From the IMG/VR virus record IMGVR_UViG_3300021091_000011: DNA of 64,000 nt; one strand, 5' to 3'. The notes beneath the pieces were generated by a model. That model ran no database searches. It was not told the DNA's origin and saw only the letters and a program-made list of their open reading frames with translations. Origin of the DNA: a virus (Duplodnaviria; Caudoviricetes). The translations under genes were made by a program, and so were the position numbers. Shown in pieces: positions 41,767-44,125 of this stretch. Position 1 is the stretch's first letter; every line of letters begins with the position of its first letter.

Positions 41767-42076
41767 TACCCGAAGTCGGATTCGAACCGACACGCCCTTG
41801 CGAGCGGAGGATTTTCTTACCACTATGGTTTTCACCACCAAATCACGTTGTTTGTGGTCTGGACTTTGCCTTCACCCTCGCCATCTAGCCTCGGCTAGAT
41901 TCGTTAGGGCGGCTACCGTCAAGTCTCTACACCTTCCCCATTTATCATGGGGCTTGGCTCGGCGTTGGGTCGCTTTCGCAGGCCGTTCACCGAATTTGGC
42001 AGCATTCACTCAAGGGGCTTTCCCCCTTGGTGCTCAATCAATAAGTCCTCTGTGGCTACCCTTTCACCATTCGGGC
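41767..42076 (-). tRNA. trnL: tRNA-Leu(TAA) interrupted by a group I intron (exons 42043-42076 and 41767-41815)
   Basis: Exon 1 ends GAGGACTT and exon 2 starts AAAATCCTC; the spliced arm is GAGGA-CTTAAAA-TCCTC. Confidence 0.93.
41816..42042 (-). ncRNA. Group I intron (IC3, trnL-UAA type), 227 nt, no ORF
   Basis: Follows U, ends in G; P (AAATTCGG), Q (CGCCGAGCCAA), R (GTAGAGACTTGACGG) and S (AAGGCAAAGTCC) elements. Confidence 0.92.
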
Positions 42077-42869: not shown

Positions 42870-43073
42870 CTACTTGCGCTGAACGAAGTCGTACATTTCT
42901 TCGGCCAGCAAGCGAACCTGCGTGAAGGTCGGGAACGGAACTGCCAGCGGCGGGCGGTTTTCATACTGCGCCCGCGAGTTCTCGTTCTCCTGAGCCGCGT
43001 GATACTGCTCCACGAGCATATTCCGCGCCTCTTGGAGAATCCCCCAACGGATTTCGTAACCGGACTGAGACAT
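42870..43073 (-). CDS. Small hypothetical protein
   Basis: MSQSGYEIRWGILQEARNML... with AGGGAG RBS. Confidence 0.75.
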   Translation of the reverse strand: MSQSGYEIRWGILQEARNMLVEQYHAAQENENSRAQYENRPPLAVPFPTFTQVRLLAEEMYDFVQRK

Positions 43074-43094
43074 AAACCAGACTCCCTGTGTGTG

Positions 43095-43350
43095 TGGTGA
43101 AAGCAAATACCGCTGGTGTGCAACCACCTGAGATCGCTCTAGCGTCCTATAACGATCTCCCCTGCGCGGCGACAAGGACCCCGATAACGGTGAGGTAACC
43201 GGAAGGAGTTTTCGCACCCCTACAAACGCACGGATTCTCGTCCCATGACTACGCTCAAGGACTTAACGAGCCCTGAGAATCGTCCGCATATAACGTCGCG
43301 GCCCCGCCGTTTTCTACCTGACGGTACAGGTTTGAGTGGTTGCACACTCA
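43095..43350 (-). ncRNA. Candidate ~250-nt structured RNA
   Basis: Perfect 12-bp long-range helix (43116-43127 with 43336-43347) enclosing several hairpins; no credible ORF. Confidence 0.5.
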
Positions 43351-43353
43351 AGG

Positions 43354-43426
43354 CTCCGACAGCAGGACTCGAACCTGCGACCAGGCGGTTAACAGCCGCC
43401 TGCTCTACCAACTGAGCTATGTCGGA
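43354..43426 (-). tRNA. trnN: tRNA-Asn(GTT)
   Basis: GGCGG-CTGTTAA-CCGCC; followed by CCT, not CCA. Confidence 0.95.
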
Positions 43427-43429
43427 AAA

Positions 43430-44125
43430 AGCGAGGGCGTTCCACCCTCTAGAGCACGATGCCCTTACCACGGCGTCGATCCGCAGTAAGCCCCTGCGCG
43501 TACCTACGCAGAAGACTGAAAGGCTCAAGGCGGGAGCTTACGGTTATCGCTAACCTTAGACCCACTCCACTTTGCTTACCTGCGCCTAACAGGTGCTGCT
43601 GGACTTGTCACTCCAGCGGGAGGTCACTACTTTCCGTCCACCGCCATCCAACCAGAGACATTCCCTGATCGAACGCACGAACTCGGCCAGCAACGTACCC
43701 AATTCGTCCCGCCCTTTTTAACCTCGGCGTCAGGTTCCCCACCACGGTTGGACTGCTACCGTCGGTCTATTGACCGTCGCTCGGTGTCCACTTCGTCCGA
43801 ACGATCCCCGAGCACGGGGACTTACGATCACGGCTTAGAGGCCCGACGAGTTATCATCGGGCTTACCGCGACAGGCTTGTAAGCCGTAGTGAGGATAATA
43901 GGGTCTCCCGCGTCGAGACTTAGCCCGATGCGGTCGTATATTCTGCGACCTAGACCCCTAGTCGCTACATCCGTGATAATCTGAGCCAAATCCCGAACAC
44001 GGCTTCGGGGCTCAGTTCGGGTAGCAGGTCGGCACCAACCAGCCCCCGAAATCGTTTTCAATGAACGTGACGGCTTACTTTACCCAAGCCGTATTGAACG
44101 TCAACCCCTTAGTTGACGGAAACTA
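43430..44125 (-). ncRNA. Large ornate ncRNA, probably GOLLD-like
   Basis: About 690 nt, no credible ORF, packed with hairpins, between tRNAs; 3' half has GGUACGUUGCU, AGUGACCUC, GUUAGGCGCA, GUGGAGUGG, UUGAGCCUUU and GCGUAGGUAC, which I recall from GOLLD alignments (not verified by search). Confidence 0.7.

What the first reader, a model, noticed from the sequence alone, without database searches (positions are those of the whole stretch)
43095..43350. Second unidentified structured RNA immediately 3' of tRNA-Asn
Seen on the minus strand: the 5' hairpin UUGAGUG-UGCAAC-CACUCAA has a loop and arms perfectly complementary (12 bp) to GUGGUUGCACAC about 210 nt downstream, giving either a pseudoknot or two alternative folds. 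Internal helices include GAUUCUC/GAGAAUC, GCUC/GAGC and GAGAUCG/CGAUCUC. The 3' end reads UUUCACCA, followed by the RBS of a 67-aa ORF. It matches no tmRNA, SRP, RNase P or HDV pattern that I can fit.
Basis: partly seen in the sequence, partly recalled or inferred. Interest (0 to 1): 0.6.

Follow-up and report, generated by a model that had tools for sequence, protein, structure and literature searches.

The report
Conserved folded RNA after phage tRNA-Asn
A group of large freshwater phages carries, directly behind the asparagine tRNA gene, a gene for a 215-250-base RNA with a conserved fold (about ten helices, a pseudoknot, two unchanging loops that fit each other) that matches no described RNA family and has no known job.

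Summary
On the minus strand, 43104-43353 holds a perfect 12-bp complementarity (about 0.1% of shuffles) and the hairpins described.

I found 10 further variants: 8 metagenomic contigs and 2 strain variants. All lie directly 3' of tRNA-Asn(GUU). They show a conserved structured RNA with helices P1-P8, an H-type pseudoknot and probably a second one. Cells paired are 95-99.7%, against 30-45% when partners are slid. Six or seven pairs carry compensatory changes on unfitted alignments.

The 12-bp helix is not the conserved feature. The conserved features are two covarying hairpins, P1 and P8. Their 6-nt loops, UGCAAC and GUUGCA, are invariant and complementary, which reads as a kissing loop. The 'CACCA' end and the GAUUCUC/GAGAAUC helix are not conserved.

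In one lineage the RNA sits between two tRNAs with spacers of 5 nt or less, and the 67-aa ORF is absent. It is therefore not that ORF's leader. It is most likely a stable RNA cut out by tRNA-processing enzymes. There is no match in Rfam 15, phage records, IMG/VR or GTDB genomes.

Function is unknown. The closest analogues are T4 RNAC/RNAD, ROOL/GOLLD and, for the paired loops, phi29 pRNA. The scan flagged this same stretch in an overlapping window (e1-5374508), but not on other DNA.

The parts
43354..43426 (-). tRNA-Asn(GUU). It lies directly upstream of the RNA in every contig that reaches that far. It is followed by CC and then a non-A base.
   Evidence: Rfam 72.1 bits; ARAGORN; contig pieces that reach into the tRNA
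43104..43353 (-). The structured RNA as a whole, about 250 nt here and 215-250 nt in relatives. The 3' limit is inferred from relatives in which the next tRNA starts 4-5 nt after P6.
   Evidence: Alignments A1-A5; curated alignment; flanking tRNAs
43334..43349 (-). P1 hairpin, GAGUG/CACUC. Its invariant loop L1, UGCAAC, lies at 43339-43344.
   Evidence: 3 of 5 pairs carry compensatory changes. The strain variants change A-U to G-C.
43317..43330 (-). P2 hairpin, CCUG/CAGG.
   Evidence: Invariant in the contigs. Two strain variants change C-G to A-U at 43330/43317.
43284..43301 (-). P3a hairpin, CCGC/GCGG. It is conserved but shows no covariation, and its outer two pairs compete with P3.
   Evidence: Variants insert a 1-2 nt bulge.
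43224..43285 (-). P3, GGACG (43281-43285) paired with CGUUU (43224-43228). It encloses P4a (43254-43277, present in this clade and L001/L146) and P4 (CAUGG/CCGUG, 43229-43247).
   Evidence: P3 shows only G-U to G-C changes. P4 shows the pair types AU, GC, CG and UG at one position.
43202..43223 (-). P5 hairpin, 7 pair positions, loop UGCGAAAA.
   Evidence: 5 of 7 pairs carry compensatory changes across clades on the fitted alignment; 2 within the second clade on a MAFFT alignment.
43178..43201 (-). H-type pseudoknot. S1 is CGGU (43198-43201) with ACCG (43188-43191). S2 is ACCUC (43192-43196) with GGGGU (43178-43182).
   Evidence: S2 is a wholly different sequence in the second clade (UGCUU/AAGCA). 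Within this clade it changes A-U to G-C, and one variant has lost both partners of one pair together.
43161..43176 (-). P6' hairpin, CUUGU/GCAGG. Its loop holds the 5' strand of P6, so this is a possible second pseudoknot.
   Evidence: 100% paired, with U-G changing to C-G or U-A by one-sided changes on either strand (helix 6).
43109..43170 (-). P6, GCCGC (43166-43170) paired with GCGGU (43109-43113). It encloses P7 (43130-43159) and P8 (43115-43128).
   Evidence: P6 is invariant apart from G-U/G-C. P7 is a different sequence in each lineage but always a hairpin.
43115..43128 (-). P8 hairpin, GGUG/CACC. Its invariant loop L8, GUUGCA (43119-43124), is the exact complement of L1.
   Evidence: 2 of 4 pairs carry compensatory changes. 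All 12 L1/L8 columns are invariant, against 51/106 stem columns and 27/155 other columns.
42870..43087 (-). Shine-Dalgarno AGGGAG (43082-43087) and the 67-aa ORF (42870-43073). This is the downstream neighbour here and in one lineage only, and it is not part of the RNA.
   Evidence: Absent from L102, L126 and L138.

Best explanation
This is a gene for a discrete, stable, highly structured non-coding RNA of about 215-250 nt, transcribed on the minus strand together with the phage tRNAs.

I infer that the tRNA-processing machinery releases it. Trimming of the 3' end of tRNA-Asn would make its 5' end. RNase P cleavage at the next tRNA would make its 3' end in the lineages where a tRNA follows.

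It folds into a compact body. That body has hairpins P1-P5, an H-type pseudoknot, and a 3' domain (P6'/P6 enclosing P7 and P8). The 5' and 3' ends are joined by a 6-bp pairing between the invariant loops of P1 and P8. I infer that it acts in trans as an RNA, as a scaffold or decoy for a protein or as a self-assembling particle, and does not control its neighbours.

Shown here: conservation, covariation, strand and genomic placement. Inferred: transcription, processing, stability and action in trans.
For: Family and placement:
- Eleven variants exist: the window, 8 distinct contig sequences, and 2 strain variants recovered from other lake samples. All lie directly 3' of tRNA-Asn.
- In L126, L138 and L102 the RNA fills the whole gap between tRNA-Asn and tRNA-Arg(CCU). 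The spacers are 3-5 nt on the 5' side and 4-5 nt on the 3' side. No homologue of the 67-aa ORF lies in those loci, and they share no other gene with the window.

Structure:
- On plain MAFFT alignments, 95.1% of cells pair across 60 pairs in 6 sequences, against 37-44% when partners are slid, with 7 pairs changed on both sides.
- Across 35 pairs in 9 sequences, 99.7% pair against 30-45% when slid, with 6 doubly changed pairs against 0-1.
- On my fitted 11-sequence alignment, 98% pair and 24 of 59 pairs carry double changes, against 2-6 when slid.
- The close strain variants carry paired changes: A-U to G-C in P1, C-G to A-U in P2, and joint loss of both partners of an S2 pair.

Strand, loops and coding:
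- 54 G-U cells fit the minus strand only: 569 of 581 cells are standard pairs on that strand, against 517 if the opposite strand were the RNA.
- Loops L1 and L8 are invariant in all 11 variants while their stems vary.
- Indels between close variants are mostly 1-2 nt and no reading frame is kept open.

Precedent:
- T4 RNAC and RNAD come from the T4 tRNA region (PMC3014915).
- ROOL and GOLLD lie near phage tRNA islands (PMC12286853).
Against: - There are no expression data, so transcript ends and stability are inferred.
- The L1-L8 pairing rests on invariance and complementarity, not on covariation.
- Thermodynamic folding does not recover most of the proposed helices, and the nested helices account for only about half of the minimum free energy.
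- The 3' domain has competing registers, such as GYYGCC with the P8 5' strand.
- The eleven variants come from only two clades, so some 'compensatory' cells are inherited from a single event.
- In the window itself the RNA runs straight into the ORF's ribosome-binding site, so here it could stay attached as a 5' UTR.
- One relative (L432) has a different element in the same slot.
Confidence: 0.6

Rival explanations
1. It is a cis-acting 3' trailer of tRNA-Asn. On this view the folded block guides or protects maturation of tRNA-Asn, or insulates folding of neighbouring tRNAs in the polycistronic transcript, and has no role once cut off.
For: It is strictly linked to tRNA-Asn in every contig. 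It starts 3-5 nt after the discriminator base. The tRNA gene encodes CC but not CCA.
Against: About ten helices, a pseudoknot and two invariant loops are far more than a trailer needs. None of the other tRNAs in these arrays has such an element. A relative (L432) has tRNA-Asn followed by a different, smaller element.
Confidence: 0.15
2. It is a conformational switch or riboswitch-like leader. The 12-bp duplex and the two-hairpin form would alternate to control read-through or translation of what lies downstream.
For: In the window clade the long-range duplex is predicted to be 6-11 kcal/mol more stable than the two hairpins when the kissing energy is not counted. The RNA abuts the ORF's ribosome-binding site. 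An alternative pairing of the P8 5' strand exists.
Against: The downstream element differs between lineages: the 67-aa ORF in one, tRNA-Arg in the other. The extended duplex is not conserved in the second clade. There is no terminator or sequestering helix at the ribosome-binding site, and the extra hairpin that relatives have there is missing in the window.
Confidence: 0.07
3. It is a self-cleaving or self-processing ribozyme that frees the tRNA-Asn 3' end or its own ends.
For: It sits exactly at a processing site. It is pseudoknotted and has invariant unpaired stretches. A group I intron lies in the same array.
Against: No ribozyme family in Rfam matches, even at E <= 10. The host tRNA-processing enzymes already explain both ends.
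Confidence: 0.05
4. It is a decaying remnant of tRNA genes or of an intron, with no present function.
For: Other notes on this genome report damaged tRNA copies in the same array. The element in L432 contains a T-arm-like hairpin.
Against: The tRNA model gives no hit here. Helices are kept by compensatory changes across two lineages that share no other gene. The two loops are invariant.
Confidence: 0.03

Closest known systems
Bacteriophage T4 RNAC and RNAD (stable RNAs of the T4 tRNA region)
   Same: They are small non-tRNA RNAs encoded inside a phage tRNA cluster and co-transcribed with tRNAs. Their biological role is still unknown (PMC3014915, PMC9697503).
   Different: No sequence similarity: blastn of this RNA finds nothing in 50,697 phage records. 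I recall the T4 RNAs as shorter (own knowledge, not checked here). Pseudoknots or paired loops in the T4 RNAs were not checked here.
ROOL (RF03087) and GOLLD (RF01998) ornate phage RNAs
   Same: They are phage-encoded, often next to tRNA islands, pseudoknotted, use kissing loops, and have no known function. Loop pairings first read as tertiary contacts proved to be bridges between molecules (PMC12286853).
   Different: This RNA does not match either covariance model. It is 215-250 nt, against about 600-800 nt or more. Oligomerisation is untested.
phi29 packaging RNA (pRNA, RF00044)
   Same: It is a phage RNA in which two loops of one molecule are mutually complementary.
   Different: This RNA does not match the model. 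Its loops pair over 6 nt, against 4 in pRNA. It sits in a tRNA array and not at the packaging end of the genome. Earlier notes of this scan relate the phage to phage G, not to phi29-like phages (not checked here).
E. coli 3'ETS-leuZ and other functional spacers of tRNA operons
   Same: A functional RNA is released from a tRNA precursor by the tRNA-processing RNases (own knowledge: Lalaouna et al. 2015).
   Different: Those are short, weakly structured sponges for small RNAs. This RNA is large and pseudoknotted, with invariant loops.

Membership tests
ROOL (RF03087) / GOLLD (RF01998) | Match to the family covariance model at its gathering score | tested here: not met
   No match in 43095-43353 even at E <= 10, nor in the homologous stretches of L126 and L003.
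ROOL (RF03087) / GOLLD (RF01998) | Encoded in phages next to tRNA genes | tested here: met
   It lies inside tRNA arrays in all loci.
ROOL (RF03087) / GOLLD (RF01998) | Homo-oligomeric assembly through bridges between molecules | not testable with these tools
   Needs SEC, native gels or cryo-EM.
phi29 pRNA (RF00044) | Match to the covariance model | tested here: not met
phi29 pRNA (RF00044) | Two mutually complementary loops in one molecule | tested here: met
   L1 UGCAAC and L8 GUUGCA are invariant in 11 of 11 variants. Whether they pair within or between molecules is unknown.
tmRNA | Detection by ARAGORN or Rfam, with a tRNA-like acceptor ending in CCA and a tag reading frame | tested here: not met
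   Neither tool detects it. The CACCA end occurs only in the window: relatives with the ORF read CACCG followed by an extra hairpin, and in the other lineage a tRNA follows directly.
Group I intron (RF00028) | Match to the covariance model | tested here: not met
   The only hit in the window is 41836-42052.
Riboswitch or leader of the 67-aa ORF | Constant association with the regulated downstream gene | tested here: not met
   The downstream neighbour is tRNA-Arg(CCU) in L126, L138 and L102, and the ORF is absent there. More distant ORF homologues lack the RNA.
T4 RNAC/RNAD | Sequence similarity | tested here: not met
   No blastn match in the phage collection.
T4 RNAC/RNAD | Non-tRNA stable RNA encoded within a phage tRNA cluster | tested here: inconclusive
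   The location is met. Stability and expression are not testable here, because no RNA run holds the stretch.

The most novel reading that the evidence does not exclude
The two invariant, mutually complementary loops pair between molecules and not within one. It would be made from a small RNA punched out of a tRNA precursor in a huge phage.
Probability: 0.15. Interest if true: 0.8.

Novelty: new variant of a known kind. Interest (0 to 1): 0.5.

Why it matters
Phage tRNA arrays are emerging as nests of elaborate RNAs whose functions are unknown. Examples are T4 RNAC/RNAD for fifty years, and ROOL and GOLLD, now known to form RNA cages.

This element adds a compact, well-delimited family of 215-250 nt. 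Its ends are defined by flanking tRNAs. It has a covariation-supported pseudoknot and a pair of absolutely conserved complementary loops.

It sits beside a second, larger unexplained RNA in the same operon. Huge phages may therefore deploy sets of such RNAs alongside their tRNAs.

Tried and rejected
Searches for relatives that found nothing:
- Rfam 15 at gathering and at E <= 10, on the window and on two homologues: nothing but tRNAs and the known group I intron.
- blastn against 50,697 phage records: no match.
- IMG/VR pattern scans and a GTDB genome scan: only chance hits, none confirmed by nhmmer.
- No whole genome is held for this window.
- An ORF67 protein scan of IMG/VR found nothing.
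- More distant ORF67 homologues sit in other contexts without the RNA.

Steps that could not be completed or gave no information:
I used nhmmer and hand-anchored alignments instead.
- No RNA holder was listed among the public runs, so there is no information on expression.
- Pfam on ten neighbouring ORFs gave no family.
- Minimum-free-energy folding did not reproduce the comparative structure.
- A search for further conserved helices turned up only ambiguous alternatives in the G/C-rich 3' domain, plus P6'.

Ideas considered and dropped as unsupported:
- The 12-bp stem as the conserved closing helix.
- A CCA-ended tRNA-like or tmRNA-like molecule.
- A T-box-like reading of AAC in L1 as an Asn codon. 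This is only 3 bp, and I estimate roughly a one-in-four chance of such a match by accident (my own estimate, not computed).
- P1 as a mimic of a tRNA-Cys anticodon arm. The loop is 7 nt in only some variants.
- A paralogue of the neighbouring large RNA or of another copy in the window. There is no second hit in 64 kb.

Full report
**What is in the window**

On the minus strand, tRNA-Asn(GUU) occupies 43354-43426 (Rfam 72.1 bits; ARAGORN). A stretch follows with no plausible gene, down to the Shine-Dalgarno and ATG of a 67-aa ORF at 42870-43073.

- A perfect 12-nt complementarity, 43336-43347 with 43116-43127.
- The 5' hairpin.
- GAUUCUC/GAGAAUC.
- The GAGAUCG/CGAUCUC hairpin.

A perfect inverted repeat of 12 bp or more arises in 21 of 20,000 shuffles. 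Rfam 15 gives nothing here even at E <= 10. The only non-tRNA hit in the array is a group I intron at 41836-42052.

**Relatives**

The RNA has no match in 50,697 phage records or in IMG/VR.

Homologues of the 67-aa ORF led to contigs L001, L003, L004 and L005. Each has an alignable RNA between tRNA-Asn and the ORF. A pattern built from the conserved 3' part then found six metagenome contigs. L146 resembles L001. L126, L138 (identical over the RNA to L189) and L102 (identical over the RNA to L176) are new contexts.

Laying contigs of other lake samples on the window gave two further strain variants. They carry 19 and 22 substitutions in the RNA stretch (43095-43353), plus small indels. That makes eleven distinct sequences in two clades.

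L001, L003, L005 and L006 are syntenic relatives of the window phage, with neighbouring proteins 60-95% identical. L102, L126 and L138 share nothing with the window except the tRNA-Asn/RNA block. Broader pattern scans of IMG/VR and of GTDB genomes gave only chance hits.

**Placement**

Every contig that reaches far enough has tRNA-Asn directly upstream. P1 begins 3-5 nt after the discriminator base.

The downstream neighbour is not constant. In the window lineage it is the 67-aa ORF. In L126, L138 and L102 it is tRNA-Arg(CCU), which starts 4-5 nt after the last helix, and no homologue of the ORF lies in those loci. More distant ORF homologues sit elsewhere without the RNA.

The RNA is therefore not a leader of that ORF. 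In one lineage its two ends coincide with the sites where tRNA 3' and 5' processing enzymes cut.

**Structure**

Comparison gives the following elements, in window coordinates on the minus strand:
- P1: 43345-43349 with 43334-43338.
- P2: 43327-43330 with 43317-43320.
- P3a: within 43284-43301.
- P3: 43281-43285 with 43224-43228. It encloses P4a (43254-43277) and P4 (43229-43247).
- P5: 43202-43223.
- An H-type pseudoknot. S1 is 43198-43201 with 43188-43191. S2 is 43192-43196 with 43178-43182.
- P6': 43172-43176 with 43161-43165.
- P6: 43166-43170 with 43109-43113. It encloses P7 (43130-43159) and P8 (43115-43128).

The pair counts are:

| Alignment | Sequences | Pairs | Cells paired | Paired when slid | Pairs changed on both sides |
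|---|---|---|---|---|---|
| MAFFT, second clade | 6 | 60 | 95.1% | 37-44% | 7 |
| MAFFT, both clades, eight helices that align without help | 9 | 35 | 99.7% | 30-45% | 6 (0-1 when slid) |
| Hand-anchored, all variants | 11 | 59 | 98% | 36-41% | 24 (2-6 when slid) |

The hand-anchored alignment used a register search of +/-3 for some rows, so it leans towards the structure.

The most telling cases are these:
- P5, S2 and P7 have wholly different sequences in the two clades, yet form the same helices.
- The near-identical strain variants change A-U to G-C in P1 (43348/43335) and C-G to A-U in P2 (43330/43317).
- One strain variant has lost both partners of an S2 pair together.

54 G-U cells fit only the minus strand. 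On that strand 569 of 581 cells are standard pairs, against 517 if the opposite strand were the RNA.

Indels between close variants are mostly 1-2 nt and no frame stays open, so no peptide is conserved.

**The 12-bp complementarity**

Both of its halves are the loops plus inner stems of P1 and P8. The stems of P1 and P8 covary as local hairpins.

The six loop bases on each side, UGCAAC and GUUGCA, are invariant in all eleven sequences. By comparison, 51 of 106 stem columns and 27 of 155 other columns are invariant.

The three flanking pairs on each side, which make up the 12 bp, hold only in the window clade and are mismatched in the other. The conserved feature is thus a 6-bp loop-loop pairing.

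Because the loops never vary, there is no covariation to prove that pairing. Nothing tells whether it forms within one molecule or between molecules.

Nearest-neighbour folding, which cannot score a kissing complex, prefers the long duplex in 10 of 11 sequences.

- GAUUCUC/GAGAAUC is absent from the second clade and broken in one variant (C-U). It overlaps P3, P4a and P4.
- The 'CACCA' end is peculiar to the window.

**Uncertainties in the model**

- P3a, P6 and S1 are conserved but barely vary.
- P3a competes with P3 for two G residues.
- The G/C-rich 3' domain has alternative registers, including a pairing of GYYGCC with the P8 5' strand that also shows correlated changes.
- The nested helices account for only about half of the predicted minimum free energy.
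- Two clades are few independent events.

**Mechanism**

The best reading is a stable RNA released from the tRNA transcript by the host's tRNA-processing nucleases and acting as an RNA in trans.

The processing step follows from established knowledge of RNase P and of RNase Z, RNase E and exonuclease action at tRNA ends, together with the tRNA-to-tRNA placement.

[quoted passage not shown] ROOL and GOLLD are further precedents, 'often near tRNA islands' (PMC12286853).

In ROOL and GOLLD, loop pairings predicted as tertiary contacts turned out to be bridges between molecules (PMC12286853). In phi29 pRNA, two complementary loops of one molecule build a ring (own knowledge). An RNA-only assembly is therefore the most novel reading left open.

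No RNA run holding the stretch was listed, so nothing can be said here about expression.

**Rivals**

I judge each of these less likely, for the reasons given under each rival:
- A mere trailer of tRNA-Asn.
- A switch that controls downstream expression.
- A ribozyme.
- A decaying remnant.

**Verdict**

This is a real, conserved, pseudoknotted RNA family not found in Rfam 15 or in the paper searches made here. It belongs to the known kind of unexplained structured RNAs in phage tRNA arrays. Its function is unknown.

Noticed in passing
window 41836-42052 (-): A group I intron hit (RF00028, 52.9 bits) lies between tRNA-Glu and tRNA-Val. Relatives L001 and L006 have an uninterrupted tRNA-Leu(UAA) at that place. 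The window's tRNA-Leu(UAA) is therefore split by an intron and missed by ARAGORN. Already noted by the scan as e1-5374494.
   Followed up: partly
window 43433-43449 (-): A terminator-like hairpin, GAGGGUGGAACGCCCUC plus a U-run, sits at the end of the upstream large RNA. Its U-run runs into the first bases of tRNA-Asn. tRNA-Asn and this RNA may therefore depend on read-through or start a separate unit.
   Followed up: no
L432 35-150 (+): In one relative, the slot between tRNA-Asn and a homologue of the 67-aa ORF (64% identical) holds a different element of about 110 nt. It is closed by a 13-bp stem and followed by a U-run (z = -4.4), and contains a T-arm-like hairpin.
   Followed up: partly
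L001 3945-4000, L003 2990-3049, L004, L005, L002, L146: Relatives that carry the ORF have an extra hairpin, GCGGGU...ACCCGC, between the RNA and the ribosome-binding site. It is deleted in the window. The 16 nt CACACACACAGGGAGU before the start codon are invariant in six sequences.
   Followed up: no
L001 3767-3825, L146 (same): There is a tandem duplication of the P4 hairpin unit (CGUGAUYAGGGGGACGAnACACCCUG). The window clade has an unrelated extra hairpin, P4a, at the same site. This is a variable insertion point in the RNA.
   Followed up: partly
window 42870-43073 (-) and P0006-P0042: The 67-aa ORF belongs to a family of small proteins with no Pfam domain: 38 clusters at E <= 0.001. Members often lie beside tRNA genes. 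In L433, for example, one lies between tRNA-Ala and tRNA-Gln.
   Followed up: partly
L102 7783-8718 (+): The 311-aa ORF just upstream of tRNA-Asn in the second lineage has a RAP-domain match just below threshold (23.6 against 24.2 bits). The same contig encodes an SNase-like protein and a 1601-aa DUF4215/PPC protein.
   Followed up: no
window 43339-43344 and relatives: In L138, L102 and the two strain variants, the P1 loop has 7 nt (CUGCAAC or UUGCAAC) on a 5-bp stem. That is the format of a tRNA-Cys(GCA) anticodon arm. The other variants have 6 nt.
   Followed up: no
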